Assembly (NCBI GenBank): GCA_944363555.1
Contig: CALVUL010000020.1
Location: 1-55,271 of the forward strand
Length of the DNA: 55,271 nt
Direction: 5' to 3'
Origin: an uncultured Clostridia bacterium
GTDB lineage: Bacteria; Bacillota; Clostridia; Christensenellales; Borkfalkiaceae
In this document: positions 17,257 through 30,551 of the stretch, one piece after another
How positions within the stretch are numbered: position 1 is the stretch's first letter
Layout: every line of letters begins with the position of its first letter
Position numbers and translations under genes: made by a program
Notes under the pieces: generated by a model
Told to the model about the DNA's origin: nothing
Database searches by the model: none
What the model saw: the letters and a program-made list of their open reading frames with translations, nothing else

Positions 17257-17260
17257 ACCG

Positions 17261-19576
17261 TTACTTCTTTTTCGTTATGCTTAAATTTCTGATGAACAAC
17301 GTAAATTCCGTAAGACGGCGTTCCACGTTGTCGTCGAGCATCTTTCTGTCGTTCAAAACGCCGATCTTCAGCCCCGTAACGCGCTTAAAATCGAACGCCG
17401 CCGCGCGCGCCTCGTTTTCCGCGCGGTGATGCCACCAGACGGTATCCTCCGCGTTGTTGAGGCGGTTGACCGCCATATCGGTGCAGTAAACGGAAATTTC
17501 GCTTTCCGCGCCCTGCTCCGCCATATCGTAGCCCATGGGGTATTCCCCGCCCTTGCGGTCGACGAGGGAAACGGTAACGACCGCCTCGTTTTCCGAAAGG
17601 TTGCCGATTTTGCCCTCCACCCGCAGGAGGTTTTCCGCATTCATCGGGAAGGGCACGAACACGGAGGGCGCGCAGTCGTTTTCAAACTTTTCGGTGAAAA
17701 TCCCCGCGTCCCCGCCGGCGAAACGCACTTCGCACCGCGCGGGTTCGATGTTTTCCAGCGGCACCGCCTCCCTTGCGGGGGAAATGCGCTTGACAAAGGT
17801 CTTTTCCCTGCCGTTCACGGTATATTTCAAGGTGAAAAACGTGGTTTTCCGCCCGAAAGGCAGCCGCGTTTCCGCCTTATACGCGTTGCCCAGCCGCACC
17901 CGTTCCATGCCGGAAAGCGTTACCCCCTCCGCGCAGTAAACGGAAATTTTGTATTCGCCCCGCTCCGTTTCGGGCAGGACGAACACGCCGTCCTCCGCGG
18001 CGGTAACGTGGGCGGCGAGTTCGGCTTTGAGTTCCTCCGCGCCCGCGCGGTAAACGAGCGCGGCGCCGGCGGCGATTTCGTCGAAAATCGGTTTCAGCGA
18101 GGCGCGGGGATCGAGTCTGACCCCGCACTCCTTTTCCAAAGCCTTCACATGCCTGTCGAAGAGGTAAAAATATTCGTAATCCTGATTGCCTTCAAAGATC
18201 GACATCATGCGGTAGGAAGGCAAAATTTTGCCGTAATACGTTTCGGTGTACAAAAGCAGTCCGTCGCCGTTTACGCCGCCGAAAGCAATCGGTTCGTTGA
18301 GAATATCCGCGGACACGTATTGCTGCTTTTCGCTGTCGTAACGCTTGGTGAGGTTGACCGCCCAGAATAAATTGCCCGCAATATCGTACTTGTAGCGCAG
18401 CCACGGTTCGAAACGGGCGTCCGCCGCGGGGCTGTCGGTATGATAGTTCAAAATGGGGTGCCACGGCGCCATACAGCCGTACCACCAGTTCTTTTTGCCG
18501 AGGCGGCGCAGGTGCTTTTCCTCGTACACGTATTCCGGTTTGCTGTACGCGAAGAAGGTGGGGCACCACGTATCCACCTGCCCGTAGATCGGCTCTTTGT
18601 TGAACACCGTAACGACGTTGGGCAGCGCGTTCAGACTTGCCCGCACGTTTTCCTTGCCGGTGAAATCGCATTCGGCGGAAACTTCCCGCAAGATCTTGTA
18701 ATATTCGTCGTAAACGCGGGTTACCGAATGGAAACGCTCGGGGGTGGGCTCGTCGATAAACGTGATGTAAAAATACGCCTTTTTGAAAAGGTCCAGCTCC
18801 GCCGTACTCGCCTCCGCCATGGCGGTGAGGATGTCTTTTAAGAATTTTTTATCGAGCACTTCCTGATTTTTCTGGAAAATCGTATCTTCCCTGAGCGTGG
18901 TATAGTTTATGGAATAGGACGGCACTTTATCGTCCGCCGCCGCCTTTTTATAGCGTTCGACGAGATAGGGAATATCCTCCGCCCGTTCGGAAAAGGGCAG
19001 GGCGACGGAAGCCGCCGCCACGCGGTATTTCAAAAGTTCTTGATAAATCCCATCGTATTTTTCGTATTTTTCTTCCTGTGTGCCGAAGATCATATCGTCG
19101 CGCACGGCGAAGGATGACGCCGCGTGCACCTGTTCCGGTAGCGCGAAGGGGTAAATTTCGGCGGAGATCTTCGCCGAAGCCGACGCTTTTCCCTTGACGT
19201 TCAGCGTAAAGGAAAGCGTTTTCTTCCCGTAAAAACGGGGCACGGGCACCTGTATGAACAAAAATTGCGCCTCGTTCGCCCGCAGTACGTTTTCGCCGAA
19301 TTTTTCCGCGGAGGCGTTATCCACCAAAACGTCCGGATAATCGCCCGCCTCGTAATAAGAACAACTCGGCTGCGGGATGGTTACGTACCTTTCCCAGAAG
19401 ATTTCGCAGGCGGGCGCGCCGGAAACGAATACCGTTTCGTCCTCGCCGCTTGTCAAAACCGCCTGAAAGCATAAAGTTTCCCCGCGCGCCGCCGCAAGGC
19501 GGGGTTCGGGGAGATGCGCGAAGGATTCGCCTTTTTTCAGTTTATGCGAACTGCTTAAAAAACGGATTTCGATCAT
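17261..19576 (-). CDS. DUF4091 / GH123-like glycosidase, cytoplasmic paralog
   Basis: 771 aa. Shares FIDEPT (an adjacent Asp-Glu pair), WWYGCM, GNLFWAVN and GDGLLLY with the protein at 25565-27994. No signal peptide. Start moved to ATG 19576 (MIEIRF), after AAAAAAGGAA. Confidence 0.6.
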   Translation of the reverse strand: MIEIRFLSSSHKLKKGESFAHLPEPRLAAARGETLCFQAVLTSGEDETVFVSGAPACEIFWERYVTIPQPSCSYYEAGDYPDVLVDNASAEKFGENVLRANEAQFLFIQVPVPRFYGKKTLSFTLNVKGKASASAKISAEIYPFALPEQVHAASSFAVRDDMIFGTQEEKYEKYDGIYQELLKYRVAAASVALPFSERAEDIPYLVERYKKAAADDKVPSYSINYTTLREDTIFQKNQEVLDKKFLKDILTAMAEASTAELDLFKKAYFYITFIDEPTPERFHSVTRVYDEYYKILREVSAECDFTGKENVRASLNALPNVVTVFNKEPIYGQVDTWCPTFFAYSKPEYVYEEKHLRRLGKKNWWYGCMAPWHPILNYHTDSPAADARFEPWLRYKYDIAGNLFWAVNLTKRYDSEKQQYVSADILNEPIAFGGVNGDGLLLYTETYYGKILPSYRMMSIFEGNQDYEYFYLFDRHVKALEKECGVRLDPRASLKPIFDEIAAGAALVYRAGAEELKAELAAHVTAAEDGVFVLPETERGEYKISVYCAEGVTLSGMERVRLGNAYKAETRLPFGRKTTFFTLKYTVNGREKTFVKRISPAREAVPLENIEPARCEVRFAGGDAGIFTEKFENDCAPSVFVPFPMNAENLLRVEGKIGNLSENEAVVTVSLVDRKGGEYPMGYDMAEQGAESEISVYCTDMAVNRLNNAEDTVWWHHRAENEARAAAFDFKRVTGLKIGVLNDRKMLDDNVERRLTEFTLFIRNLSITKKK

Positions 19577-19639
19577 GATGAGTTCCTTTTTTATTTTTCG
19601 GGAACGGCTTTCCGCCGTTCCCGAAAACAAATTGCTTTT

Positions 19640-21553
19640 TTAAGAGAGCTTATAGCCTGCAAGATACATCGTAAACGGATCGGAACCGTCTCCGCCGCCA
19701 CCGCCTTCCACGTGCGCCAACGTTACAACGTATATCCTCTCCATATTCTCCGCGACCATCTCTTCTTCGATCGCGCTCCACTTTTCCGGAGTGATGGAAA
19801 TTTCCGCAAATTTCTCGCCGGAAACTATACTTACATGAGCGACTTTATTGCCGACGTACGTTTTGTGATCGCCGTCCACGTTCCCGAGTTTGAATACCAA
19901 GGTAAGGGTTTTTCCTTCATCTATGAACGCTTTCACCATGTCCTTGTTCAGTTCGATGCGCGGATACGCGCCCTCACTATCCATGCGGAGCATGCTCGTT
20001 CCCCTGTACTCTTCCGATACGGGCGCCGTATACTCGTTTATGGCTTGAATCAGCTTTCCTTCTCCGTACCAGTCTTCCACGCTGTCGAACACCTCGTCCA
20101 GCACCTTAACGCTGCCTTTTACCGTGGAATCCTCATATCCTTCGATGGATTGCACGCACTCGAACGTATAGTCGCCGTATTCCGTAAAGGTATAACTTTC
20201 CGCGCCCTCGTCGGTAACGGGTTCGCCGTCCTTATATACGGTGAAGGATTTCAGCGTCGCGTTTGTACCGAGCAGGTCCGCCGCGGAAAGCGTTTCGCCT
20301 TTTTCGACGGTCATATCTTTCGCCGCGCCGCGCACGTTATCGAGATAATATTCCAAATTGGATTCACAAATTGCACCGTCGTTTAAAACACAGAACATTA
20401 AATCATTCCCCGAATCAACGATGGATTTTAAAATTTCGCCATCTACCGTGATCGTTACACCGGTTTTCGGTGCAAGATTTTCGTAGTAATTCTGGGTTCC
20501 GCCGTTGAGATACGATGACCAATAACCGTTATGCGCAAGCGAGCCGTTGTTGTAAAGATCGAAGGAAATCCCGCCGTACGCGTTGTAGAAATCGGTCAAT
20601 ACCGAATTTTTGATGATGATGTGCGGATAACCCGAGCCTTCCGCATTGCGGTACAGACCTTGTTTGCCGTCCGTACAGCCTGCCGCGAGGTTGCCGACTT
20701 TCAGATAATCCCATGCGCCGTCCTTAGAGGCGAACAGCGTTTTATCATAAATCGAGCCGACTTCTTCCTCTTCAAAACTATAGAACAGTTTTTTCACCGC
20801 GTTAACGGTAACGGCAACGCTGTCCGTTCTGCTGCCCAGCGCGGCGGTGATGTTCGCCGTGCCCGTGCCGACGGCGCGCACCACGCCGTTTTCATCCACC
20901 GTGGCGATTTCGTCGTTATCGGAAGAGAATTTTACAACAAGCCCTTCCGCGCCCTCTGCCGCAAGCGTTTTTTCATCGCCGACGTTCAGTGCAAAATCTT
21001 CCCCCAACGAGATCGCCGGAACCGCCTTATCCACGATGGAGGTATAGACGGGATCTTCCTGCCCTGCCGCCAGCGCCGCGCTGGCAACATACGCCACCGA
21101 ACGCGTTTGCGGATTGGAAACGTAGGTCTTTACCCCGTCCACCGCGTAATACGCCTTGGCGGTGAGCTTTGTAAGATACTGCGTACCGGGGATGTTGGTG
21201 AGCACCGCCTTGAAACACTTCACCGTTTCGGTGCTCTCTTCCGCCCATACGGTCTGCGGAATATCGAGGGGTTCAACATCTTCCCTGCCCGCGGGTACGA
21301 TCTCCGTGCCGAAGGTGATTTCGGCTTCGGGATTTGCTTCTTCAAGCCCGTCGATGAACGCCTGATCCACCTTGGTGATAAAGCGCAGCCCGCTCGGTTC
21401 TTCCAGCCGGATCTCCGCGCCCGTTTCCATGGCGAACGTGCCGGCGTTTTCCTGTGCCCTGACCGGCAGATTGACCGCCGCCAGAACGCCGAGGCTCACC
21501 GTCAGAGCCGCGGCAAACAACCCGTAAAATACATTCTTCAATCTTTTCGTCAT
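19640..21553 (-). CDS. Secreted Big_2 (Ig-like) protein carrying two CBM-like modules
   Basis: SPase-I signal MTKRLKNVFYGLFAAALTVSLGVLAAVNLPVRA-QE. Big_2 signature IATVDENGVVRAVGTGTANITAA. Start moved to ATG 21553; the 39-aa Arg/Gly-rich extension in the track is not credible. Confidence 0.7.
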   Translation of the reverse strand: MTKRLKNVFYGLFAAALTVSLGVLAAVNLPVRAQENAGTFAMETGAEIRLEEPSGLRFITKVDQAFIDGLEEANPEAEITFGTEIVPAGREDVEPLDIPQTVWAEESTETVKCFKAVLTNIPGTQYLTKLTAKAYYAVDGVKTYVSNPQTRSVAYVASAALAAGQEDPVYTSIVDKAVPAISLGEDFALNVGDEKTLAAEGAEGLVVKFSSDNDEIATVDENGVVRAVGTGTANITAALGSRTDSVAVTVNAVKKLFYSFEEEEVGSIYDKTLFASKDGAWDYLKVGNLAAGCTDGKQGLYRNAEGSGYPHIIIKNSVLTDFYNAYGGISFDLYNNGSLAHNGYWSSYLNGGTQNYYENLAPKTGVTITVDGEILKSIVDSGNDLMFCVLNDGAICESNLEYYLDNVRGAAKDMTVEKGETLSAADLLGTNATLKSFTVYKDGEPVTDEGAESYTFTEYGDYTFECVQSIEGYEDSTVKGSVKVLDEVFDSVEDWYGEGKLIQAINEYTAPVSEEYRGTSMLRMDSEGAYPRIELNKDMVKAFIDEGKTLTLVFKLGNVDGDHKTYVGNKVAHVSIVSGEKFAEISITPEKWSAIEEEMVAENMERIYVVTLAHVEGGGGGDGSDPFTMYLAGYKLS

Positions 21554-21555
21554 GA

Positions 21556-21684
21556 TCAGTTCCCCCATTCCTCCGGCCATTCGCCGAAGTCCTCGTCTGC
21601 CGTCGTCGCCACGGAGTTTAAAACCGCGTCGTTTGTGCCGAACAGCAGAATTTCCGCCGTCGGCTGCCAATACTTTTTCTTCAT
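21556..21684 (-). CDS. Unannotated 42-aa ORF: MKKKYWQPTAEILLFGTNDAVLNSVATTADEDFGEWPEEWGN
   Basis: Hand translation of the minus strand. ATG 21684 lies 6-7 nt after AAAGGAGGAG. The TGA at 21558-21556 ends 2 nt before the ATG of the next gene. It is too short for the supplied ORF track. Confidence 0.5.
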   Translation of the reverse strand: MKKKYWQPTAEILLFGTNDAVLNSVATTADEDFGEWPEEWGN

Positions 21685-21792
21685 TTTTCTCCTCCTTTAT
21701 TTTTTTCCCGCAGTGCGGGAGGATGCCGTGTTTTTAAACGGCTTTTTTTCCGCCCGCTTCCGCAGGCGGAAAAGGTTGCCGTTTCTGCCGTT

Positions 21793-24312
21793 TTACAGCG
21801 CGCCGCGCACGTTGTCGATATAATAGCGGAACGCCGCGTTTTCATAAGCGGGGGTGCCACCCTCGTTCATGATCTGGAACATCATATCCTCGCCGGAAGA
21901 CAGGATCGCCGCAAGCTGTTCGGCGGTCAGGCTGACTGTCGTCCGCGACGCGGGCGCAAGGCTCTGCCGCACGTATTCGCCACCCGCCTCGATATAACTG
22001 TCGTGCTGTTTCGCGCCGGCGTTATACACGTCGAAATGCATTTCGCCGCAGAAGTAGTAGAAATCGCGCACCACCGACCTTGCGACGACGAAGTAGGGAT
22101 ACCCGTCGTTCACGCCGTCGAAATTAAACGTAAGGCTCTGCGTTCCCTCGCTCGTGCCGGCAGCGTCCGTGGAGACGAGAACGCTCGTTTTCCTGCAGTC
22201 CCCGCCGAACAGACCGCCGCCGTAGGCGCTCCCCGCGGTCTCCTCTTCAAAGCCGTAGAAGGGGGTATAATCTTCGCGCACGACGAGTTTCGCCGTAAAC
22301 ACGCCCTCCGCATAGAACGCTTTATTCACGGTGAGCTGCGCCGTATATTCGCCCGCCGGCAGGGTGATCGCGCCGCCCTGCGCCGCGCCGGTTACTTCCG
22401 CGCCGTCCGCGCCGAAAATCTTCAGCGCGTATTCTTCTTCGAGCAGCCCGCCGAACACGTAGGCGAGGTCGAAGGCTTTATTTGCCGGCACGTTCACGTC
22501 GGTATACGCGCCGCGGAAATCGTCGAAGAGGAAGAACCCGTCCTCCGCCTTACCCGAAGCGGAATTGTCGTTGAACAGCACGATGTGCAGATCGTAAGCC
22601 GCCTCGACATAGGTTTGCAGTTCGTGGCTGTAAATAACGAGTTCCGCCGTCTGCCCCGCGCCGAGCACATAGCGGCGGAGCGCGCCGCGCGTGGGCGTTT
22701 CGATATAGAACTGGTGTTCGAACTGCCCGCCGTTATAGATCTTGAAGGTGAAATAATCGTAGTAATCGACAAACTGCGCGAGATAATCGATGTCGATGGC
22801 AAGCCCGGGCCAGCCGTTCGACGTTGTATAACTGCCGATGAGGGCGTTTTTCCCTTCGGGAGCGAAGGAAGAATCGCCGCGCTTGATCGTCGCGCCGTCC
22901 ATGCCGGCATACACGGAAAGATCCGTATCGCCTTCAAAGTTCTCGTTTAAGGACATCTGCCTGCCGCGCACGTCGAAATCGAAGGCGGCAAAGCCGTCCG
23001 CGCCGAAGAGCACGCGCACCTGATACGCGCCGGCTTTCTGCGGGATGAAGGAATCGGCGGCAACGCCGTCTTCCGTCTTCACGCCGTCGCAGTACACTTC
23101 AAAACCGGTGTAGGTCTTGCCGGCGAGTTTTTCTACGTTCTGATAAATCGGAGCGACGGCAATTTCGTCCCCCGTATAGGCGACGGCTGTATCGGCGAAC
23201 CTGCCGCTGATCTTTTCAAAGTACAGCGAAAGCATTTCGTTGTTGCCGTCCGCGGGGTCGTTCATCGTAACGAGGGTGATGTCGTTGCCCCTTTCCAGAC
23301 TCCACTGAATGCTTTCCGCGGTAAATTCGATCTCGCCTCTGCCGCCCGCGGGAATGGTGAACCGGCTGTACGCCGCGTTCTTGGTATATCCGCCGTTTTC
23401 GTCGAGTTCGCCCGCCGTCTGATAATAGATCTGGTGCGCGTGCGCGCCGGCGTTGTATACCGTCAGAAGAACTTTATCGTAGATTGCCGTATACGTTTCG
23501 AAGAATTCTGCGGAAAAGCGGATGTTCGGCCAGTAATTGCCGTTGGTGTTCGCCTGAATGGAAACGCTTTCCCCCTCGACGTGCGGCAGAAGAGTAACCT
23601 GTCCGTCGGGGCTGTAAATCAGCGAAGGATCGTATCCGGAAGAGAAATCTTCGACCACGTCCGTCAGCACCTCGGGATCCTTTTCGCCGTAAGCGAAGAG
23701 GATGGCGCTGTTGCCGCCCGTGTTGCCGAGGGCGTCCTCCGCCTCGATCTCGATGCGGTAGAACCCGATTTCTTCGGGCGTGAATTTGTTGGTTTCCGCG
23801 TTCACGCTTATTCCCGTTTCGCCGTTTTTATAATGGGCGGTGATGCGGGTTTCCGCAATGGGGGAATAATCCTGCACCACGTATTCGGGAAGATCGGCTT
23901 CCTCGCCCACCGGCACGCGCACGCTCGTTTCCCTGAAATAGACGGTCGGGGCGATGGTGTCGGTTACCTTGACGGTGGTCGTTACGCTGTGTTCCTCCCC
24001 CGCGACGGTGGCGGTGTAGGTGATCACGTACCCGTCGATGGAAGTTACCGGCAGCCTGCCGCGGGAAACTTCCACCACGCTGTCGCCCTGCTTCACGGTG
24101 TAGGCGGCGGGGTATTCCTTGCCCTCGCTGTCGACGGCGAGCACGTCCGGAATATAATACTCCGAACCGAGTTCCACCGTAACCTCGTCGATGACGGAAA
24201 ATTCTTTCAACGTGATCTTCCCGTCGTCGTTGCAGGCGGCGAGCCCCGCTGCGGCGGCGATCGCCGCGGCGACGCACAGCGCGATCAAAGCGCGCTTAGT
24301 CTGTTTTTTCAT
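21793..24312 (-). CDS. Surface lipoprotein: Ig-like (DUF5011-type) region plus three CBM-like modules
   Basis: Lipobox MKKQTKRALIALCVAAAIAAAAGLAAC. DTIAPTV-type Ig segment. Three modules each show the FE/FS start, an xVYN/IYN core, and a DNVRG / DDFRG / FEKISG end. No catalytic motif recognised. Confidence 0.7.
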   Translation of the reverse strand: MKKQTKRALIALCVAAAIAAAAGLAACNDDGKITLKEFSVIDEVTVELGSEYYIPDVLAVDSEGKEYPAAYTVKQGDSVVEVSRGRLPVTSIDGYVITYTATVAGEEHSVTTTVKVTDTIAPTVYFRETSVRVPVGEEADLPEYVVQDYSPIAETRITAHYKNGETGISVNAETNKFTPEEIGFYRIEIEAEDALGNTGGNSAILFAYGEKDPEVLTDVVEDFSSGYDPSLIYSPDGQVTLLPHVEGESVSIQANTNGNYWPNIRFSAEFFETYTAIYDKVLLTVYNAGAHAHQIYYQTAGELDENGGYTKNAAYSRFTIPAGGRGEIEFTAESIQWSLERGNDITLVTMNDPADGNNEMLSLYFEKISGRFADTAVAYTGDEIAVAPIYQNVEKLAGKTYTGFEVYCDGVKTEDGVAADSFIPQKAGAYQVRVLFGADGFAAFDFDVRGRQMSLNENFEGDTDLSVYAGMDGATIKRGDSSFAPEGKNALIGSYTTSNGWPGLAIDIDYLAQFVDYYDYFTFKIYNGGQFEHQFYIETPTRGALRRYVLGAGQTAELVIYSHELQTYVEAAYDLHIVLFNDNSASGKAEDGFFLFDDFRGAYTDVNVPANKAFDLAYVFGGLLEEEYALKIFGADGAEVTGAAQGGAITLPAGEYTAQLTVNKAFYAEGVFTAKLVVREDYTPFYGFEEETAGSAYGGGLFGGDCRKTSVLVSTDAAGTSEGTQSLTFNFDGVNDGYPYFVVARSVVRDFYYFCGEMHFDVYNAGAKQHDSYIEAGGEYVRQSLAPASRTTVSLTAEQLAAILSSGEDMMFQIMNEGGTPAYENAAFRYYIDNVRGAL

Positions 24313-24333
24313 CTTTTTTCCTCCTTTTTCTGT

Positions 24334-25557
24334 TTATGCATTCGCTTCAAAACGGAAATTGTCGTAATAATACACCCTGTCGTCCGCCGTGGAATCGCCG
24401 GGGAATTCGCCCCAGATGCAGGCGATGCCTTCGATGAGTTCGCACGCCGTGGGGGGCTGTTCCTCCCCCTCCTCGACTTTCGGCGGGGGGAGTTTCGCGT
24501 TGATGTCCGAAAGGGCTACCCGCACTTCCGTCCACTTGCCGGGCTCCGCGTAGAAGTTCATGGCGTACGTGCCGCGGTCCCCCGCGAAGAAATCGAGTTC
24601 TATGCGCATGGACACGGAAGAATCGTTATACACGTCGAACACGAAGGAATAACCTTCCTGATACTTTGCGAAATCCGCCGCCTTGACGAGTTTGTCGGAA
24701 AAGCGGAACATGATCCAGCTGTTATCCTGCGTGACGCCGTGCGGGCAGTACACTTTGAGCGAACGGCTGCCTTCGCTGGCGTAAATGGGGTCTTTGTTGA
24801 GGGAAAGCACCGCCTCGTAATCGGTGTACGGGCCGTAGCCGCTGGTGTAGGTGATGAATTCCTGATACTCCTTTTCAAAGGTGCAGAATTCGTTTTCTTC
24901 CAGCGCGATGTTCGCCGTCGGCAGCGCCTCTTCGGAATAGGCGATCTCGAAATTGTCGAGATAATAGTGTTTCGCCTCCTCTTCCATGACCGCCACGTTT
25001 TCGAAATAGATGCGGATCTCCCTTAAATCTTTCAGATTGTACACGAGGTCGAAATTTTCGGTGTCGTTGTTGTAGATGATCTTCGTCCACTTCCCCGCCG
25101 CCAGCGTGTATTTCAGGCGCGGCGTTTCCAGCGCGGCGGTCGCCGTGCCGTAGAAGAAACTCACTTCGATCTCTTTGTTTTCCTCGTTGGCGTTGAAGAT
25201 GTCGAACTGCACCTTTTTCACCGAGGAGAAATCCTTATACGCCTCGTTTACCTTCGACGGCTGCACGACGAGGTAGGGATCGGCGGAAGTCGCCAACCCG
25301 TATCCCGTGGGCGTGAGCGCCAGCGATTTTGCCCCCGTCCTGACGTACGCGGGGTCGTCGTTGAGAACGTATTTGCCGAAATATTCCCCGCCGGTGAGGC
25401 AGTTGAGTTCGTCCCACGATTCGAAATCGTGGAGCAGAAGATTGCCGTTTTCATCCAACGCCGAAGCGTTGTTTTCCGTTTCATCGCCCCTCTCGGCGCA
25501 CCCCGCAAGGGGGCAAAGCAGCACAAGGCACAATGCGAATATCAAAAGTTTTTTCAT
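24334..25557 (-). CDS. Surface lipoprotein made of two CBM-like modules
   Basis: Lipobox LLCPLAGC. Modules end in YYLDNFEIAY and YYYDNFRFEANA. Confidence 0.7.
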   Translation of the reverse strand: MKKLLIFALCLVLLCPLAGCAERGDETENNASALDENGNLLLHDFESWDELNCLTGGEYFGKYVLNDDPAYVRTGAKSLALTPTGYGLATSADPYLVVQPSKVNEAYKDFSSVKKVQFDIFNANEENKEIEVSFFYGTATAALETPRLKYTLAAGKWTKIIYNNDTENFDLVYNLKDLREIRIYFENVAVMEEEAKHYYLDNFEIAYSEEALPTANIALEENEFCTFEKEYQEFITYTSGYGPYTDYEAVLSLNKDPIYASEGSRSLKVYCPHGVTQDNSWIMFRFSDKLVKAADFAKYQEGYSFVFDVYNDSSVSMRIELDFFAGDRGTYAMNFYAEPGKWTEVRVALSDINAKLPPPKVEEGEEQPPTACELIEGIACIWGEFPGDSTADDRVYYYDNFRFEANA

Positions 25558-25564
25558 TTTCCAC

Positions 25565-27994
25565 CTATCCTTTCAACACGAAGTTGTCAAAGTACAGCGT
25601 TTTCGCCGATTCGTTCTTGCCGCCCGCGCGGAACACGATGCTTTCCACGCTGATATATTTTTCCCAATTGAACCCGTCGAAGGGAAGTTCGACAACCGTC
25701 TTTCCGGGCAGCAGCGTGCCTGCGTAGATCTGCATGAGCACGGCTTCGCCGCTCGTATCGACGAATGCGACAAGCGGGATGTTCGCGCCCGACGGGTTGT
25801 ACACTTCCACCGCCAGCGACTTCGCCGTTTTCAGCACGTCGAACGACGTGGTGAAGCGGAGTTCCGCCGTAACGTCCGTCGTCGCCGCGAAGTCCGCGCG
25901 GAGCGCATACCCTTCGTAACCGAACATCGACGCGTTCGCAAGGGTCAGCCTGTCGTTTTCCCCGGCGGTAAACAGGGAGAGATCGTTTTGCGTTTCCACG
26001 GGGTTGAAGATCATGCTCCTGCCGCCGAGATCGTGGGAGTACGTCGCGCTCTTGCCGTCCTTTTCCAGTTCCAGAACGAAACTGTTCTGCGCTTTATCGA
26101 GGGCCACGGTGTAAACGTATTCGTTGAGCGTGCCGTTTTCCGAAACGGGGGAAACCGCTTCCCCGTTGATCTTCACCGTAACGCCCTTTTCCGCCGCCAC
26201 GCCGAATTCCGCTTCGGTGCTGCGCTCTTCCACCTTCGTGATGTACGCGCCGAAGGTCTGGTTGATGACGCCGAGTTCCATCAGTTCTTCCCGCGCCGCG
26301 GCGAATACGGAGGGATCGTTCATCACCTCTTTTTTCACCTGCGCGTTGGAGTACAGTTTTTTATACAGCGTCTGTAAAATGCCGTCGGCGTCGTAGCCCT
26401 TCGCCGCATAGTTTTCTTCCAGTTCGTTGAGGATCTCGTACTCTTCCAGCCCGTCGCGGATGCTGTGCAGGCGGATGGACGCCACGGGACCGATGCCGTA
26501 CTTCGTGCCCGGGTAGAACAAATATCCGTCCCCGTTGTCGCCCGGGAAATGCATGGGCGACGCCGTATACGGGTCGATCCTGTTGTAAGTGCCGTCGTAA
26601 TCGATCCAGAAACAGGTATCCCAGTACAGGTTGCCGCTGGCGCCGTAATCTTTCTGCATCCAGCTTGCCACCCGCGAAGTGATGAGATAATCGTCCAGCT
26701 GATAGGTCGGGAACGGGTTGTTCGGCCCGATGCAACCGTACCACCAGTATTCCACGCCCGAATTTTCGTAAAATTCCTGCCGCGCGACCGAATTGAAATC
26801 GTCGAAGAGCGGCACCCAGTATTTCACCCCCTCGCCGTCGTTATACAGTTCGTCGGTATAGCGGTTGGTTACGATGTGCGGAAAATTGCGCACCGCATCG
26901 ATGATCTCCGCCCCCAGCGCGCCGGCATACGCCGAATCGCTTTCCATTTCCGCGGCGATCTCCTCTTTGGTGATCTCCACCTGATGGGAAATGCGCACCG
27001 CGCGGTCGACGGTGCCGGCCATAGTGGGCTCGTCGATGAGGGAGCCGAGGTATAAATACGCCTTGTCGAGATAATTCTTTTCGTCTTGCAGGGAAATTTC
27101 CGCCAAGGCGAAAATCGTGTCTTTGAACTTGTCGTAATCCATATCCGTATCCGCCGCGGACGTGTTGTACTTGATGGAGTACGGCACGGAATAGGAAGGC
27201 GTTTTATCGTAATATTCCCGAACCGACGCGAGGTAGTAGTTCGTATCCTCCACGAGGGTGGGCAGGTTGATCCCCGCAAGGCGGTAATCGAGCAGCAGAT
27301 CGTACGCCGCTTTATAGTGTTCGAGGGTGTCGTCGCCGGAGGCGTTCAGGAAGTGGCGGCTGATGGCGAAGGCGCTTTTGGCGGTGATGTCGTCCGTCAG
27401 CGTGTAATCGTAAACGGTTACGCTTGCCGCGATCTCGTAATCCTTATCGTCGCAATGCACCGTGAACGTGCCTTCGTATGTGCCCGCCGCCTGCTCTTTC
27501 GGGCAGTAGCAGGTGATCCAGATCCCCTGATTTTCCCCCGCCTTCACGGTGTTTTCGCCGTATTCTTCGGCGGTCTCCATCGGCAGAAGGGCGTCGGGAT
27601 ACCAGCCGAAACCGGTGGAAAAACCGTCCGACTGCTTGGTTACGTTGAGGTATTTCTGATTGTAAACGGAAAAGTTTTCCTTTTTAAGGGTTTTCCCTTC
27701 CGCGCTCGTGAGATCGCCGAGGGTAACCGAATAGGCGCTTATGTCCTTTTCCGGCGTCAGGATGATCTGCGCGCTTTCGTATTCGTTCCTCGTCATCGAA
27801 ACGCGGAACACGGGGTTGTTTTCGGCAACGTCATCCTCATCGCGGTTGCGGTTGATCCGGACGGTGCCGTCCGCCGCCCAGATCGCCACGTCGTTTTCGC
27901 CCCCGTTCTTGTTGTCGTTACAGGCGCCGAGCGAGAAGATCATCCCCGCGGCGAGACAGAGGGAAATTGTTTTGTAAAACAGTTTTTTCATCAC
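25565..27994 (-). CDS. DUF4091 / GH123-like glycosidase lipoprotein with a C-terminal CBM-like module
   Basis: Lipobox MIFSLGAC. Motifs LIDEPT, WWYGCI, GNLYWDTC and GDGYLFYPG are shared with 17261-19576. The C-terminal module ends LYFDNFVLKG. Confidence 0.65.
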   Translation of the reverse strand: MMKKLFYKTISLCLAAGMIFSLGACNDNKNGGENDVAIWAADGTVRINRNRDEDDVAENNPVFRVSMTRNEYESAQIILTPEKDISAYSVTLGDLTSAEGKTLKKENFSVYNQKYLNVTKQSDGFSTGFGWYPDALLPMETAEEYGENTVKAGENQGIWITCYCPKEQAAGTYEGTFTVHCDDKDYEIAASVTVYDYTLTDDITAKSAFAISRHFLNASGDDTLEHYKAAYDLLLDYRLAGINLPTLVEDTNYYLASVREYYDKTPSYSVPYSIKYNTSAADTDMDYDKFKDTIFALAEISLQDEKNYLDKAYLYLGSLIDEPTMAGTVDRAVRISHQVEITKEEIAAEMESDSAYAGALGAEIIDAVRNFPHIVTNRYTDELYNDGEGVKYWVPLFDDFNSVARQEFYENSGVEYWWYGCIGPNNPFPTYQLDDYLITSRVASWMQKDYGASGNLYWDTCFWIDYDGTYNRIDPYTASPMHFPGDNGDGYLFYPGTKYGIGPVASIRLHSIRDGLEEYEILNELEENYAAKGYDADGILQTLYKKLYSNAQVKKEVMNDPSVFAAAREELMELGVINQTFGAYITKVEERSTEAEFGVAAEKGVTVKINGEAVSPVSENGTLNEYVYTVALDKAQNSFVLELEKDGKSATYSHDLGGRSMIFNPVETQNDLSLFTAGENDRLTLANASMFGYEGYALRADFAATTDVTAELRFTTSFDVLKTAKSLAVEVYNPSGANIPLVAFVDTSGEAVLMQIYAGTLLPGKTVVELPFDGFNWEKYISVESIVFRAGGKNESAKTLYFDNFVLKG

Positions 27995-28019: not shown

Positions 28020-29648
28020 TCAGTTCGTTGGGTCTATGCCGGAGTTTTTCAGCATCAGATTGAACTTTTCCACCGTCCACTCGTCTTCGTATTCGCTCCG
28101 GTACAGTTCGTAAGGCGTTTTATAGTGCTTTTCGTCCTTGGTGGCGAAAAATTCTTCCGCATACTGCCCGTCCCCGATCCAGAGCGTCAGCCCGCCGAGG
28201 GTGGTGAGGGGCGTGGTGCCGTAGGTGGTGATCAGATTTTCGTATTCGGGGTTGGCGATGGTTACTTCGTAACGCGATTTTGCGAAAGCCGACATCGAAC
28301 CCCACCGCTCCGTATCGTTTTGCAGATCGTATTTGATGGGCAGCTGGTTGCCGGTGGTGGCGTCGAAGTAGATCCTGTACCCTTCGTCGCTCAGCATGAA
28401 TTTCAGAAATTCCTTGGCGAGGTCCTTCGCCGTGGCGTACACGGGGATGCCCACGGTGTGGTTGCCGCCGATGGTGTAGCCCACGTTGCGCGCGTTCTTC
28501 ACGATCAGAACGTCGTCCTCCTTCGCAAACGACGGTTTTTCGCCCTCGGGTTCGCCCGCGTCCACATAATCGATGATGGCGGAAAGTTTTTCGTCGTATT
28601 CCTTGCGCGTTTTGGCGGGCATCGTTTTCGTCGCCTCCGCGAACGTCTTGCCCTCCTTCCAATAGGAAAGTTTTTCGGAAAGCGCGCTGACGACAGGCGT
28701 TTTCATCATGCGGAATTCAAACTTGTTCTCGTCTTCGTTGGCGACGTTGCGCATCTCGTTTTCCAGCCAGTCGCCGTTGACCATCATCAGCCCGTTGCCG
28801 GAAATGAACTGCGCCTGCGACTGCGCGAAGTTCATCAGATTGACGTTGTCGTGATTGTTCCCGAGTTCGTGCCGGATGAGGGAATTGAGGGCTTCCAGAC
28901 TTTCCAGCCTGCCCTGCTGCAGGAAAATATCCCGCGAATAGGCGCCGTTATCGATGCCGAGGAAGAAATTCTTCACGTTCTCCGCCCCTTCGTACTGCAT
29001 ATACCACAGGCGGGTCATATATTCCCAATAGTTGGTGGAAACGGAGAACACGAAGGGGATTTCGCCCGCGGCTTTGATGTCCTCGCAAAGCTGCACGAGT
29101 TCGTCCGTCGTGTTGGGAACGGCGATGTTCGGGTTATCCTGCGCAAGGATCTCGAACTTGCTCGCGTTGTAGATCAGCCCCGTGGCGCCCACCGCCCACG
29201 AGAAGGAATAATAATGCCCGTCGATTTCCTGCGGCACGGCGTCCCGTATGAATTTATCTTTCAGCATGACGCCGTTTTCCTCGTATTCCATCACCTCGTC
29301 GATATTTTCGAGGATGATGTCGTAATCGGGGTGCACGTTTGCGCCCGCCATGGCATAGGAATCCATATCGCCGCCGATGATGAACAGATCCACCGTGTTG
29401 GTCGTGCCGGATTGCAGCAGCGCGGCGGTCTGATCGAGGTCGTCCCCCCAATATTCCACGTTCACGCCCTCGTGTTCGTCTTCGAACGCCGCGGCGAGAT
29501 CCGCCACGAACTGATCGCCGTATCCGGCGTTGAGGAAATAGATTTCCAGCGTGTTTTCGTCGTTGGAAATTCTCGGTTTGCATCCGGCGAGCGCGCCCGC
29601 CGAAACCGCGATCGCCGCGGCAAGCACAAAGGTAAGAATTTTTTTCAT
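28020..29648 (-). CDS. ABC transporter extracellular solute-binding lipoprotein (large LplA-type)
   Basis: 542 aa with lipobox GALAGC. Family-1 SBP size and layout; immediately precedes two sugar permease genes. Confidence 0.85.
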   Translation of the reverse strand: MKKILTFVLAAAIAVSAGALAGCKPRISNDENTLEIYFLNAGYGDQFVADLAAAFEDEHEGVNVEYWGDDLDQTAALLQSGTTNTVDLFIIGGDMDSYAMAGANVHPDYDIILENIDEVMEYEENGVMLKDKFIRDAVPQEIDGHYYSFSWAVGATGLIYNASKFEILAQDNPNIAVPNTTDELVQLCEDIKAAGEIPFVFSVSTNYWEYMTRLWYMQYEGAENVKNFFLGIDNGAYSRDIFLQQGRLESLEALNSLIRHELGNNHDNVNLMNFAQSQAQFISGNGLMMVNGDWLENEMRNVANEDENKFEFRMMKTPVVSALSEKLSYWKEGKTFAEATKTMPAKTRKEYDEKLSAIIDYVDAGEPEGEKPSFAKEDDVLIVKNARNVGYTIGGNHTVGIPVYATAKDLAKEFLKFMLSDEGYRIYFDATTGNQLPIKYDLQNDTERWGSMSAFAKSRYEVTIANPEYENLITTYGTTPLTTLGGLTLWIGDGQYAEEFFATKDEKHYKTPYELYRSEYEDEWTVEKFNLMLKNSGIDPTN

Positions 29649-29669
29649 GATCGCTCCTTTTCGAATTTT

Positions 29670-30542
29670 TTATCCTTTCAACCCGCCCATACTGAGGCTG
29701 GTCATAAACGTCTTTCTCATCGAAATGAAGATGATTAAAATGGGGATCGCGGAAATGACGATGCCCGCGAAATACACCGGATAGTTCATGCCGCGGATCA
29801 TCTGGCTTTCGTACTGATAAAGGCCCGAAGCGATGGTCGGATAACTCGGCATATAGATGAGCGGGCTCATATAGTCGTTCCAGCCGGCAATGAAATCCTG
29901 AATGGCGAACACCGCCAGCGGCGCGAGCGCCTGCGGGAACATCACGTTCCAGAACACCTGAAAGTGCGAAGCGCCGTCGATATACGCCGCCTCCGCGTAC
30001 GACCACGATACGCTCTTGAAAAACGCGTACAGGATGAGGAACTTATATCCCCCCACCGCGAAGGTGGAAACGAGAACGTTGAACACGTTGTCGAACACCC
30101 CGAGCTGTTTCTTGATCTGTAAACTCGACGCCATCGAACCGTAGATCGGCAGCATCATCATAAAGAGGATGACGGCGTAAAACACCTTTTTCCCCGGGAA
30201 CTGCAGTTTGGCGATGGTATAGGTGGTGATCGCCGAAACGAGCGTGCCTAAAACGATGCTGATACCGTTCATCCACACGCTGTTCCACACCATGCCGAAA
30301 AAGGACGTCGTGCCGCCGCCTTTGTTGCGCACCACCAGCGATTCGAACGCCAGCCCGTAGTTGGAAAACAGCCAGCGTTTCGGAAGATCGAGGGAGTTGC
30401 CCGTTTCGTATTCCAAAGAACCTTTCAGCGAGGAAAGGAACATCCATATCATCGGGTAAAGCAGGGTAACGGCGTAGAGGACGAACAGCGCGAAAATAAC
30501 GCCCATTACGATTCTTTGCGATTTACTTTTTCTTACTGCCAT
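29670..30542 (-). CDS. Carbohydrate ABC transporter permease (LplC/MalG-like)
   Basis: 290 aa, 6 TM, EAA loop AEAAYIDGASHFQVFWNVMFP. Confidence 0.85.
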   Translation of the reverse strand: MAVRKSKSQRIVMGVIFALFVLYAVTLLYPMIWMFLSSLKGSLEYETGNSLDLPKRWLFSNYGLAFESLVVRNKGGGTTSFFGMVWNSVWMNGISIVLGTLVSAITTYTIAKLQFPGKKVFYAVILFMMMLPIYGSMASSLQIKKQLGVFDNVFNVLVSTFAVGGYKFLILYAFFKSVSWSYAEAAYIDGASHFQVFWNVMFPQALAPLAVFAIQDFIAGWNDYMSPLIYMPSYPTIASGLYQYESQMIRGMNYPVYFAGIVISAIPILIIFISMRKTFMTSLSMGGLKG

Positions 30543-30551
30543 ATCCTCACC

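What the first reader, a model, noticed from the sequence alone, without database searches (positions are those of the whole stretch)
19640..27994. Eight copies of one unassigned CBM-like module spread over four adjacent surface proteins (SusE/F-like layer in a Gram-positive locus?)
The four exported proteins encoded at 19640-21553, 21793-24312, 24334-25557 and 25565-27994 share a module of about 150 aa, recognisable by eye.

- It begins with an [FL]x[DE]F[ES]-type strand: FYSFEEEE, FYGFEEET, LNENFEGD, VVEDFSSG, LLHDFESW, CTFEKEY, FNPVETQ, FDSVEDW.
- It has a central hxFDhYN strand: ISFDLYNNG, MHFDVYNAG, FTFKIYNGG, LLTVYNAG, VQFDIFNAN, FVFDVYNDS, LAVEVYNPS.
- It ends in a YY(L/I)DN(V/F) strand: YYLDNVRGAA, YYIDNVRGAL, FLFDDFRGAY, YYLDNFEIAY, YYYDNFRFEA, LYFDNFVLKG.

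Three of the four proteins (637, 839 and 407 aa) contain no recognisable catalytic domain. They consist only of these modules plus Ig-like domains, and two of the three are lipoproteins. Non-catalytic, multi-module glycan-capture lipoproteins are a hallmark of Bacteroidota Sus-like systems, not of typical Firmicute ABC-type loci.
Basis: partly seen in the sequence, partly recalled or inferred. Interest (0 to 1): 0.6.

Follow-up and report, generated by a model that had tools for sequence, protein, structure and literature searches.

The report
New CBM-like modules on Clostridial lipoproteins
Four neighbouring exported proteins of an uncultured gut Clostridia bacterium are built from repeats of an unannotated sugar-binding-type domain. 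The domain is distantly related to the glycan-capture domains of Bacteroidota surface proteins, so this Gram-positive sugar-import operon seems to have its own glycan-capture layer.

Summary
A profile built only from 287 non-window relatives (below 40% identity) recovers seven of the eight modules: C1 5e-31, C2 1e-28, B3 8e-15, B1 2e-12, B2 6e-10, A1 2e-8 and D1 2e-8. The eighth, A2, is a probable degenerate copy, supported by its secondary-structure order, its position and a weak iterative-search link.

No module matches Pfam or NCBIfam. AlphaFold2 and Foldseek give a CBM4/11/22/30-type beta-sandwich. Deep profiles find remote homology to a laminarin-binding CBM of a Bacteroidota surface glycan-binding protein (8QX6, 9e-9), CBM22 (2e-6) and the SGBP-B xyloglucan-binding domain (5E7H 1e-4; PF18329 hits 10 of 62 relatives).

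The family has about 1,374 clusters among 1.84 billion proteins, all named ones 'hypothetical'. It occurs as one-, two- and multi-module lipoproteins or appended to enzymes.

The cassette permease-permease-SBP, GH123-like lipoprotein, two-module lipoprotein, multi-module protein recurs in 12 of 13 related loci of distinct gut Clostridia MAG contigs. This 1.66-Mb genome has seven transporter-plus-enzyme units; three two-module lipoproteins follow a GH123-like gene.

Best reading: SGBP-like glycan capture serving a surface endo-type beta-GalNAc-ase and an ABC importer. Binding is inferred, not shown. This is a new variant of a known kind.

The parts
24334..25557 (-). Protein C: 407-aa lipoprotein (lipobox LAGC, Cys20) made only of two modules, C1 and C2
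   Evidence: Lipobox. No Pfam or NCBIfam family. AlphaFold2 gives two beta-sandwiches whose Foldseek hits are CBM22, CBM11, CBM30, CBM4 and SGBP-B.
24934..25458 (-). Module C1 (residues 34-208)
   Evidence: Independent deep HMM 4.7e-31; hhalign 99.5%.
24337..24906 (-). Module C2 (residues 218-407)
   Evidence: Deep HMM 1.1e-28; hhalign 99.6%. Direct phmmer link (3.7e-5 at Z=1e6) to the second module of the C-like paralogue on contig C4, which PF18329 hits at 4e-5.
21793..24312 (-). Protein B: 839-aa lipoprotein (lipobox LAAC, Cys27). It has an unassigned N-terminal region (about residues 28-210) followed by three modules separated by about 75-aa spacers. By eye both look Ig-like; this was not tested, apart from the homologous A spacer folding as a beta-sandwich.
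   Evidence: Orthologues at 54-74% identity in five clusters.
23197..23679 (-). Module B1 (residues 212-372)
   Evidence: Deep HMM 1.6e-12; hhalign 96.6%.
22501..22971 (-). Module B2 (residues 448-604)
   Evidence: Deep HMM 6.1e-10; hhalign 96.9%.
21796..22281 (-). Module B3 (residues 678-839)
   Evidence: Deep HMM 8.2e-15; BLAST to A1 1e-26.
19640..21553 (-). Protein A: 637 aa with a signal-peptidase-I type signal and no lipobox. Domain order: N-terminal domain, Big_2, module A1, Ig-like spacer, module A2.
   Evidence: Big-like/Big_2 at residues 207-252. AlphaFold2 model, pLDDT 69. Foldseek hits to the SGBP-B of the B. ovatus mixed-linkage-glucan locus, 6E57, at 1e-9.
20318..20806 (-). Module A1 (residues 250-412)
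   Evidence: Deep HMM 1.9e-8; hhalign 94.4%.
19643..20110 (-). Module A2 (residues 482-637): probable degenerate copy. The YN motif is replaced by GN and Y-x-D-N by Y-L-A-G.
   Evidence: Not found by the deep HMM or by hhalign. Same secondary-structure order as A1. Positionally equivalent to a canonical module in L010. Weak jackhmmer link.
25565..27994 (-). Protein D: 809-aa lipoprotein (LGAC, Cys25) with a GH123-like (DUF4091) catalytic region and a C-terminal module D1
   Evidence: Pfam hits GH123_cat 2.4e-14, Glyco_hydro_123_N_2 5e-11 and GH123_N 2e-6. Best PDB relative is 8K2F, an oligosaccharide-releasing beta-N-acetylgalactosaminidase, at 7.9e-30. IDEP motif at residues 320-323.
25568..26029 (-). 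Module D1 (residues 656-809), appended to the enzyme
   Evidence: Deep HMM 1.9e-8; hhalign 96.2%.
28020..31535 (-). ABC importer: lipoprotein solute-binding protein (28020-29648) and two permeases (29670-30542 and 30552-31535)
   Evidence: SBP_bac_1/SBP_bac_8 hits. BPD_transp_1 on the orthologues. Conserved directly upstream of D-like genes in 10 related loci.
31516..32382 (-). AraC-family regulator, first gene of the operon. A promoter-like site lies at 32420-32448.
   Evidence: AraC_binding/HTH_18 on the orthologue; promoter scan.
15061..19630 (-). Cytoplasmic enzymes: GH123-like protein E (17261-19630, no signal peptide, IDEP at residue 292) and a GH36 alpha-galactosidase family enzyme (15061-17256). 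A terminator-like hairpin lies at 15000-15027.
21556..21684 (-). Conserved 42-codon ORF between B and A. Its function is unknown and it may not belong to the binding layer.
   Evidence: Called in L001, L004 and L005. 69% identity. A similar 48-aa ORF precedes the A-like gene in L002.

Best explanation
The modules belong to an unannotated family of about 150-190-aa beta-sandwich, type-B CBM-like domains. The family is a remote relative of the CBMxx/X584, CBM22, CBM27 and CBM11 families and of the SGBP-B xyloglucan-binding domain.

In this operon they form a non-catalytic glycan-capture layer:
- The two-module lipoprotein C and the three-module lipoprotein B are tethered to the membrane by a lipidated Cys. 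Spacers that look Ig-like hold them out through the cell wall.
- The secreted protein A is the third non-catalytic component.
- A single module is fused to the surface GH123-like lipoprotein D.

Proposed mechanism:
1. The modules bind a polymeric glycan, probably one containing beta-GalNAc or another beta-HexNAc, and concentrate it at the cell surface.
2. D, which is closest to an endo-type, oligosaccharide-releasing beta-N-acetylgalactosaminidase, cuts the polymer.
3. The lipoprotein SBP and two permeases import the fragments.
4. The cytoplasmic GH123-like enzyme E and the GH36 enzyme finish degradation.
5. The AraC regulator controls the operon.

Shown here: family membership of seven modules, the fold, the remote homology, the lipoboxes, the absence of catalytic domains, the conserved cassette and its multiplication. 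Inferred: ligand binding, the ligand's identity, surface exposure and the order of events.
For: **One family**
- An independent deep HMM finds seven modules at 2e-8 to 5e-31 in a whole-genome ORF search.
- hhalign gives 94-99.6% probability for the same seven.

**Fold**
- Foldseek on the model of C: CBM22 tandem 4XUP 1.4e-12, CBM11 1V0A/6R31 (TM 0.58-0.63 on the target), CBM30, CBM4, X584 8QX6 and SGBP-B 7KWB.
- Foldseek on the model of A: SGBP-B 6E57 at 1e-9.

**Remote sequence homology to proven glycan binders**
- The 63-module profile hits 8QX6 at 9.4e-9, 4XUP at 2e-6, 5E7H at 1.1e-4, 7K44 at 1.2e-4 and 1PMH at 2.1e-4.
- PF18329 hits 10 of 62 relatives, best E 4.8e-8. It also hits the C4 paralogue at 4e-5.
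- 8QX6 is one of four tandem laminarin-binding repeats of a non-catalytic SGBP. 72% of its family occurs in CBM-only proteins with up to eight repeats (preprint 10.1101/2023.09.07.556657). That is the same architecture as here.

**CBM-like behaviour**
- The module is appended to enzymes: D itself; GH123_cat+CBM9 in P0135; DUF4855+SLH in P0070.
- 96 of 148 relatives have a lipobox-like N-terminus.

**Functional coupling**
- The order permease-permease-SBP, D-like enzyme, two-module lipoprotein, multi-module protein is kept in loci where C is only 27-31% identical.
- It is also kept in two other genera of the same family.
- It is repeated within this genome.

**Enzyme context**
- D's best solved relative is NgaCa (8K2F, 7.9e-30), which is strictly oligosaccharide-releasing.

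**Operon**
- One promoter-like site lies upstream of araC.
- One strong terminator lies after GH36.
Against:
- Both AlphaFold2 models are of moderate confidence (mean pLDDT 62 and 69), and the alignments behind them have only five sequences.
- Homology to characterised CBMs is seen only with deep profiles. No window module scores against PF18329 or any CBM Pfam model, and there is no pairwise similarity to 8QX6. Ligand-binding residues therefore cannot be transferred.
- Some SGBP-B-type domains are known not to bind: the three Ig-like domains of BoSGBP-B do not contribute to binding (PMC4850273), and the N-terminal CBM-like domain of CHU_1279 contributes little (PMC12016534). Some of the eight modules may likewise be spacers.
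- A2 lacks the family's signature residues.
- In distant lineages the module occurs outside GH123-like contexts.
Confidence: 0.62

Rival explanations
1. The modules are structural or protein-protein interaction domains. They would act as spacers, or as subunits that dock onto the GH123-like enzyme or the SBP, and would not bind glycan themselves.
For: - The C-like protein sits directly after the D-like enzyme in all 13 related loci listed. The same holds for the three two-module (C-like) genes of this genome, on contigs C20, C4 and C47. That is as expected for an obligate partner.
- In Bacteroidota, the physical presence of an SGBP can matter more than its binding (PMC4850273; PMC12016534).
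- A2 has lost the conserved motifs yet is conserved among orthologues.
Against: - The fold and every detectable characterised relative are carbohydrate binders.
- The module is also found appended to unrelated enzymes and alone in about 200-aa lipoproteins.
- It also occurs in loci without a D-like gene.
Confidence: 0.17
2. The proteins are adhesins. They would be lectin-like surface proteins that attach the bacterium to host mucus or to other microbes, rather than nutrient-capture proteins.
For: - They are multi-repeat, elongated exported proteins with Ig-like spacers.
- All source MAGs with a stated origin come from animal guts.
- Foldseek also finds adhesin-like multi-Ig proteins, and the top hit for A is the ZmpB mucinase with CBM51.
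Against: - The genes lie inside a single operon with an AraC regulator, an ABC importer and three glycosidases.
- That cassette is conserved and multiplied, which is the pattern of substrate-specific utilisation loci.
- There is no LPXTG, SLH or other adhesin anchoring signal.
Confidence: 0.1
3. The 'eight copies of one module' is partly an illusion. The shared strands (FxDFE, hxFDhYN, YYxDN) would be generic features of the galactose-binding-like jelly roll, and the window would hold several unrelated CBM-like families.
For: - Shallow profiles and leave-one-out HMMs failed to link the A/B-type modules, the C-type modules, D1 and A2.
- Terminal YxD-type strands also align with CBM22, CBM11 and SGBP-B.
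- A2 is not detected by the family HMM.
Against: - A single HMM that contains no window sequence finds seven modules, and otherwise only similar lipoprotein ORFs, among 9,359 ORFs.
- Single linkage at a conservative threshold joins six of the modules.
- The family profile scores its own members far better (1e-8 to 1e-31) than any known CBM (best 9e-9, against a single PDB chain).
Confidence: 0.06

Closest known systems
CBMxx (X584) laminarin-binding CBM of the Christiangramia forsetii surface glycan-binding protein (PDB 8QX6; preprint 10.1101/2023.09.07.556657)
   Same: - Best sequence relative among solved structures: the module profile scores 9.4e-9 and 38.7 bits. It is also a Foldseek hit of the C model.
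- Beta-sandwich type-B CBM.
- It occurs as tandem repeats (four in Cf-SGBP, up to eight elsewhere) in non-catalytic lipoprotein-type (S)GBPs. It is sometimes fused to a GH.
   Different: - Detected only by deep profiles. There is no pairwise similarity (best phmmer E of 10), and the window-only HMMs give E above 500.
- CBMxx is mainly a marine Bacteroidota family linked to SusC/D and GH16_3 laminarin loci.
- Here the context is gut Clostridia with ABC importers and GH123-like enzymes, so the ligand is very unlikely to be the same.
SGBP-B xyloglucan-binding domain, Pfam PF18329 (B. ovatus BACOVA_02650, PDB 5E7G/5E7H) and other SGBP-B proteins (7K44, 6E57, 7KWB)
   Same: - Architecture: a lipoprotein with Ig-like domains plus a distal binding domain. 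B and A have spacers of this kind.
- The profile hits 5E7H at 1.1e-4 over the whole domain and 7K44 at 1.2e-4.
- PF18329 hits 10 of 62 family members and a paralogue in this genome at 4e-5.
- Foldseek on A finds 6E57 at 1e-9, and on C finds 7KWB at 4.6e-7.
   Different: - No window module reaches PF18329's cut-off or even E<=10.
- There are several binding-type modules per protein instead of one.
- The genes are not next to SusC/SusD, and the organism is a Clostridia member with an ABC importer.
CBM22 (tandem CBM22-1/CBM22-2 of Paenibacillus barcinonensis Xyn10C, PDB 4XUP), CBM11 (1V0A), CBM27 (1PMH), CBM30 and CBM4
   Same: - Same jelly-roll fold. 4XUP is the best Foldseek hit for the two-module protein C (1.4e-12), and CBM11 gives TM 0.58-0.63.
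- Profile E-values: 2e-6 for CBM22 and 2e-4 for CBM27, and 1.5e-3 for CBM11.
   Different: - No Pfam hit of any window module to CBM_4_9, CBM_11 or CBM30 above the cut-off; the best is C2 against CBM_4_9 at E 0.15.
- Those families are normally appended to plant-cell-wall glycanases rather than forming free-standing lipoproteins.
Bimodular SGBP-B-like proteins (B. thetaiotaomicron beta-1,3-glucan SGBP-B, 7KWB; Cytophaga hutchinsonii CHU_1279, PMC12016534)
   Same: Two tandem CBM-like beta-sandwiches on a surface lipoprotein or outer-membrane protein, encoded beside the transporter and enzyme of a utilisation locus. This is the architecture of protein C and its roughly 370-430-aa relatives, which make up 52 of the 148 top family members.
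   Different: Those are outer-membrane proteins of diderm Bacteroidota. Sequence similarity to protein C was not shown.
Gram-positive polysaccharide utilisation loci (gpPUL; Sheridan et al. 2016, PMC5320581; PMC10318527)
   Same: A co-located regulator, ABC transporter and glycoside hydrolases in a Firmicute.
   Different: gpPULs are described as lacking SGBPs, with that role taken by CBMs on endo-acting enzymes (PMC10318527). Here three dedicated non-catalytic multi-module proteins are a conserved part of the cassette.

Membership tests
Pfam PF18329 SGBP_B_XBD | Score at or above the family's gathering cut-off (26.4 bits) | tested here: not met
   - No window module is reported, even at E<=10.
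- A scan of the whole genome with PF18329 finds only the C-like paralogue on contig C4, at 23.7 bits and E 4e-5.
- 10 of 62 relatives hit at E<0.01, best 4.8e-8.
- Those inspected individually score 16-22 bits.
SGBP-B type surface glycan-binding protein (functional class) | Lipid-anchored, non-catalytic, multi-domain protein with Ig-like spacers and a distal CBM-like binding domain | tested here: met
   - Lipoboxes in B (LAAC) and C (LAGC).
- No catalytic family in A, B or C.
- The beta-sandwich modules and, in A, an Ig-like spacer appear in the models.
- Foldseek matches to 6E57 and 7KWB.
SGBP-B type surface glycan-binding protein (functional class) | Encoded in a SusC/SusD-centred PUL of a Bacteroidota member | tested here: not met
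   The locus has an ABC importer (an SBP and two permeases) and no SusC/D genes. Related records are Clostridia/Bacillota MAGs.
SGBP-B type surface glycan-binding protein (functional class) | Demonstrated binding of the locus's target glycan | not testable with these tools
   Needs recombinant protein and glycan binding assays.
CBMxx / X584 (laminarin-binding CBM, 8QX6) | Sequence membership (family HMM or significant pairwise similarity) | tested here: inconclusive
   - Deep module profiles hit 8QX6 at 9.4e-9 and 2.9e-6.
- Pairwise phmmer against all modules gives E>=10, and window-only HMMs give E>500.
- The CAZy/dbCAN family model was not available.
CBMxx / X584 (laminarin-binding CBM, 8QX6) | Binds laminarin in a cleft on the concave face | not testable with these tools
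   The locus has no GH16/GH17/GH30 context. Its enzymes are GH123-like and GH36, so the same ligand is unlikely. This is an inference.
Carbohydrate-binding module (CAZy sense) | Discretely folded module found within carbohydrate-active enzymes | tested here: met
   D1 is fused to a GH123-like catalytic region. Relatives are fused to GH123_cat+CBM9 (P0135) and to DUF4855 (P0070).
Carbohydrate-binding module (CAZy sense) | Carbohydrate-binding activity shown for at least one member | not testable with these tools
   All eight named family members are 'hypothetical protein' or carry only a DUF label. No paper on this family was found.
Pfam CBM_4_9 / CBM_11 / CBM30 (known jelly-roll CBM families) | Score above the family's gathering cut-off | tested here: not met
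   The best window hit is C2 against CBM_4_9 at E 0.15 and 12.8 bits, with a cut-off of 25.9. Relatives give only sub-threshold CBM_11 and CBM30 hits.
Bacterial lipoprotein | N-terminal signal peptide ending in a lipobox Cys | tested here: met
   - B: ...AGLAAC at Cys27.
- C: ...PLAGC at Cys20.
- D...SLGAC at Cys25. The Gly at position -2 falls outside the lipobox pattern used, so D was read by eye.
- The SBP also has a lipobox (read by eye from the translation).
- A has an SPI-type signal ending VRA|QE (read by eye, not run through a predictor).
GH123 / DUF4091 beta-N-acetylgalactosaminidase lineage (for D and E, context only) | GH123_cat (PF13320) above its cut-off, and the catalytic Asp-Glu pair | tested here: inconclusive
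   - PF13320 scores 53.9 bits for D and 35 bits for E, against a cut-off of 23.1.
- D hits 8K2F at 7.9e-30.
- An IDEP motif is present in D (residue 320), in E (residue 292) and in paralogues.
- The printed alignments do not cover that segment, so equivalence to the catalytic DE motif of PMC11087588 is not verified.

The most novel reading that the evidence does not exclude
The cassette is a previously unrecognised Gram-positive counterpart of the Bacteroidota Sus paradigm. It consists of an ABC importer, a surface endo-type GH123-like lipoprotein, an obligatory two-module SGBP-like lipoprotein and a multi-module SGBP-like protein. Its capture proteins would be homologous to SGBP-B/CBMxx binding domains, not merely analogous. 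The cassette has been multiplied in a small-genome, uncultured gut Clostridia genus: seven transporter-plus-enzyme units and about nine or more GH123-like genes in 1.66 Mb. This would make the genus a specialist on diverse beta-GalNAc/HexNAc-containing polymers. The module would found a new CBM family with new ligand specificities.
Probability: 0.35. Interest if true: 0.75.

Novelty: new variant of a known kind. Interest (0 to 1): 0.6.

Why it matters
Current descriptions of Gram-positive polysaccharide utilisation loci say they lack dedicated surface glycan-binding proteins and rely on CBMs carried by enzymes (PMC10318527).

This locus and its relatives show something different:
- A conserved set of non-catalytic, lipid-anchored, multi-module proteins is wired into an ABC-type locus.
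- The proteins are built from an unannotated domain family of about 1,374 clusters, all 'hypothetical'.
- The family's nearest characterised relatives are the binding domains of Bacteroidota SGBPs.

If binding is confirmed, three things follow:
- A new CBM family, and a handle (the family HMM) for finding such loci in uncultured Clostridia.
- Candidate ligands for the poorly understood endo-type DUF4091/GH123-like enzymes, whose natural substrates are unknown (PMC11087588).
- Evidence that the capture-cut-import logic of Sus systems has a homologous binding component in monoderm gut bacteria.

Tried and rejected
- **Pfam and NCBIfam scans.** Whole proteins and isolated modules were scanned, the modules at E<=10 against Pfam. 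No family was found for any module.
- **Window-only statistics.**
  - Leave-one-protein-out HMMs and shallow orthologue-profile hhalign failed to connect the C-type modules, D1 and A2 to the A/B-type modules.
  - This would have led to 'three or four unrelated families'. It was overturned for all but A2 once 287 outside relatives were used.
- **Word-index homologue searches.** They found only 5-7 clusters for C and B. The exhaustive profile search was needed.
- **The search for related loci.** The 5-sequence alignment worked.
- **Known CBM on GH123.** I considered that the module might be the CBM recently described on Akkermansia GH123. That one is a CBM32 and is unrelated.
- **A2 as a different fold.** I considered this and rejected it as the more likely reading, on secondary-structure order, position and jackhmmer evidence. 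It is not excluded.
- **Direct comparison with 8QX6.** Comparison with the aligned part of its sequence shows no pairwise similarity, so I do not file the modules as CBMxx members.
- **Model coordinates.** They are not exposed to scripts, so A1 and A2 could not be superposed.

Full report
**The locus**

All genes lie on the minus strand. Their order is:
- an AraC regulator (31516-32382)
- two ABC permeases (30552-31535 and 29670-30542)
- a lipoprotein solute-binding protein (28020-29648)
- D (25565-27994), C (24334-25557) and B (21793-24312)
- a 42-codon ORF (21556-21684)
- A (19640-21553)
- a signal-less GH123-like protein E (17261-19630)
- a GH36 enzyme (15061-17256)

A promoter-like site lies upstream of araC, and the only strong minus-strand terminator between araC and GH36 follows GH36. 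This fits one operon of about 17 kb.

Pfam assigns D to GH123 (GH123_cat 2.4e-14 plus both N-terminal domains), E to GH123_cat (1.3e-8) and the last gene to GH36. In A it finds only a Big_2-type Ig domain, and in B and C nothing above threshold. NCBIfam adds nothing. B and C have classical lipoboxes, and D ends in SLGAC with Cys25. A has an ordinary signal peptide, read by eye.

**Checking the observation**

I set the module boundaries at:
- A1 250-412 and A2 482-637
- B1 212-372, B2 448-604 and B3 678-839
- C1 34-208 and C2 218-407
- D1 656-809

With window sequences alone the case is incomplete.
- BLAST links A1 to B3 (1e-26), B2 (3e-8) and B1 (1e-7), but C to B only at 0.004-0.3 (the best of these overlaps the signal peptides), and D to nothing.
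- Leave-one-protein-out HMMs recover A1 and B3 but not C1, C2, D1 or A2.
- hhalign with four- to six-sequence orthologue profiles gives 96-100% within A1/B1/B2/B3 and 83% for C1-C2. It gives no link between the groups.

**Bringing in relatives**

A 16-module profile (eight window modules plus eight from the distant locus L002) was scored against all 1.84 billion representative proteins. It found 1,374 proteins at E<=1e-3, 502 at <=1e-10 and 37 at <=1e-30.

Among the best 148:
- 9 are single-module proteins of about 200 aa
- 52 are two-module proteins of 261-450 aa
- the rest carry up to eight modules by this count (the search reports up to nine matched stretches), in proteins of up to 2,699 aa
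- 96 have a lipobox-like N-terminus

From these I cut 293 near-full-length modules. An HMM built from the 287 retained contains no window sequence and no module at or above 40% identity to one. Searched against all 9,359 ORFs of the window's genome, it finds:

| Module | E-value |
|---|---|
| C1 | 4.7e-31 |
| C2 | 1.1e-28 |
| B3 | 8.2e-15 |
| B1 | 1.6e-12 |
| B2 | 6.1e-10 |
| A1 | 1.9e-8 |
| D1 | 1.9e-8 |

Otherwise it finds only similar exported ORFs. hhalign of each orthologue profile against this alignment gives 94.4-99.6% for those seven. Single linkage of phmmer hits at E<1e-3 with Z=1e6 puts A1, B1-3, C1 and C2 in one component of 295. Seven modules are therefore one family.

**The eighth module, A2**

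A2 is not detected by the deep HMM, and hhalign gives only 24%. Three observations still favour a degenerate copy.
- In the AlphaFold2 model of A, the ordered part of A2 (522-636) has the same succession of strands and helices as A1 (300-408): E-E-H-E-E-E-E-H-E-E.
- In the alignment with the 640-aa homologue in L010, A2 is positionally equivalent to a second module that the family HMM does detect.
- jackhmmer started from A2 converges on the A/B-type modules. Its first step outside the orthologues is a six-repeat protein with a summed E of 1.1e-7 but a best single domain of only 0.019.

I put A2 at about 75% likely to be a divergent copy.

**What the module is**

The AlphaFold2 model of C (pLDDT 62, five-sequence alignment) is two beta-sandwiches. 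Its Foldseek hits against the PDB are the CBM22 tandem 4XUP (1.4e-12), CBM11 (1V0A/6R31, TM 0.58-0.63 on the target), CBM30, CBM4, the laminarin-binding X584 module 8QX6 and SGBP-B 7KWB.

The model of A (pLDDT 69) matches the B. ovatus mixed-linkage-glucan SGBP-B 6E57 at 1e-9.

By sequence, a 63-module profile hits:
- 8QX6 at 9.4e-9
- CBM22 (4XUP) at 2e-6
- the SGBP-B xyloglucan-binding domain (5E7H) at 1.1e-4, over its full length
- SGBP-B (7K44) at 1.2e-4
- CBM27 (1PMH) at 2.1e-4

Pfam PF18329 (SGBP_B_XBD) hits 10 of 62 short family members, best E 4.8e-8. It also hits the second module of a C-like paralogue on contig C4 at 4e-5, 23.7 bits, just under the 26.4 cut-off. That module is directly similar to C2 (3.7e-5 at Z=1e6).

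No window module itself scores against any Pfam CBM model. There is also no pairwise similarity to 8QX6. The family is thus a separate, unannotated branch of the type-B jelly-roll CBM superfamily, not a member of a described family. All eight named relatives are 'hypothetical protein' or carry only a DUF label.

From general knowledge of these folds, the conserved acidic residue of the first strand and the near-invariant Y-x-D of the last strand are the kind of pair that forms the structural metal site of jelly-roll CBMs. It is an inference and was not tested.

**Context**

The arrangement is conserved far beyond the close orthologues. Thirteen related loci of gut Clostridia MAGs were examined; two of them (L005 and L006) look like the same sequence. 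In eleven of the 13, C is only 27-31% identical.
- In every one of the 13, a two-module lipoprotein directly follows a D-like gene.
- In 12 of the 13, it is followed by one or more multi-module or single-module proteins.
- Ten loci also show the SBP upstream, and nine of those both permeases. The other three lack it: two keep the D-C-B-A-E-GH36 block behind other genes, and one contig starts inside D.

Two other genera of the same family show the same cassette.

Inside the window's own genome (1.66 Mb, 94.8% complete):
- D/E-like genes occur on contigs C4, C10, C12, C18, C20, C24, C27, C40, C47 and C91.
- Seven of them sit beside the same SBP-permease set.
- Further C-like lipoproteins lie on C4 and C47, and a 1,517-aa protein on C18 starts with two C-type modules.
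- Several of these genes are cut by contig ends, so the count of distinct D-like genes is about nine or more, not exactly thirteen.

In other proteins the module is appended to GH123_cat+CBM9+Big_2, to DUF4855+SLH and to other extracellular domains.

**Taxonomic range**

| Group sampled | Genomes with the module (E<=1e-5) |
|---|---|
| Other genomes of the same genus | 7 of 7 |
| Other genera of the same family | 4 of 17 |
| Other families of the same order | 0 of 16 |
| Class-wide sample | 1 of 199 |
| Phylum-wide sample | 8 of 300 |

The family is patchy, with a strong expansion in this genus. One relative comes from Elusimicrobia.

**Mechanism**

D's best solved relative is NgaCa (8K2F, 7.9e-30). 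NgaCa is the only strictly oligosaccharide-releasing member of the DUF4091 enzymes. It has an open cleft, and its natural substrates are unknown but thought to be long repeating glycans (PMC11087588). E matches the mixed-type relatives only weakly (3e-6) and has no signal peptide.

The most economical reading is a capture-cut-import system.
1. Lipid-anchored B and C, secreted A, and the module on D bind the polymer.
2. D releases oligosaccharides.
3. The SBP and permeases import them.
4. E and GH36 finish degradation in the cytoplasm.

In Bacteroidota this role is played by SusE-positioned SGBPs. These have tandem Ig-like domains and a distal binding domain (PMC4850273) or tandem CBM-like domains (PMC12016534). 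The closest sequence relative, 8QX6, is itself one of four repeats in such a protein.

By contrast, Gram-positive PULs are described as lacking SGBPs (PMC10318527).

**What remains unshown**

There are no data on binding, ligand identity, surface exposure or expression. Both models are of moderate confidence. Some modules, A2 above all, may be non-binding spacers, as happens in known SGBPs.

**Verdict**

I rate this a new variant of a known kind: a new branch of CBM-like modules that forms an SGBP-like layer in ABC-type loci of uncultured Clostridia. Interest is 0.6.

Noticed in passing
window 21556-21684 (-); L001:13820-13948; L005:10596-10724; L002:13350-13496: A 42-codon ORF with no signal peptide (MKKKYWQPTAEILLFGTNDAVLNS...DEDFGEWPEEWGN) lies between B and A. 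It is called as a gene in three related loci at 69% identity. A similar 48-aa ORF sits directly upstream of the A-like gene in the distant locus L002. Its function is unknown.
   Followed up: partly
genome contigs C4, C10, C12, C18, C20, C24, C27, C40, C47, C91: The 1.66-Mb genome carries about nine or more GH123-like (DUF4091) genes. Seven of them sit beside paralogous permease-permease-SBP sets, and many contigs end inside these genes. This is a striking multiplication for so small a genome and the likely cause of the assembly breaks.
   Followed up: partly
window 25565-27994 (protein D): D's nearest solved relative is NgaCa (8K2F, 7.9e-30), the strictly oligosaccharide-releasing beta-N-acetylgalactosaminidase whose natural substrate is unknown. 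D and E both carry an IDEP motif. I did not verify by alignment that it corresponds to the catalytic DE pair.
   Followed up: partly
window 21082-21436 (protein A, residues 40-158, the stranded core; helices extend to about 177): The N-terminal domain of A (G-A-x-I/V-R-L...G-I/L-R-F) has no Pfam match but folds confidently (pLDDT 70-90). It recurs at the start of the A-like proteins in L010 and L002. Its role is unknown; it could be an anchoring or binding domain.
   Followed up: no
L005:2446-4227: In one related MAG the D-C-B-A-E-GH36 block is preceded by a DUF4838 protein instead of the AraC and ABC-importer genes. The enzyme and binding-protein block therefore moves as a unit independent of the transporter.
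   Followed up: no
L002:16031-18091: In the distant cassette the downstream enzyme is a GH78-like rhamnosidase rather than GH36. It also has two extra single-module lipoproteins of 208 and 209 aa. Different cassettes probably target different glycans.
   Followed up: no
P0060 (Elusimicrobia MAG): A family member carries the module together with a metallophosphatase domain, CarboxypepD_reg repeats and a sub-cut-off match (24.0 bits against a cut-off of 27) to the Por_Secre_tail (T9SS) sorting domain. The module therefore also occurs outside Bacillota, in diderm secretion contexts.
   Followed up: no
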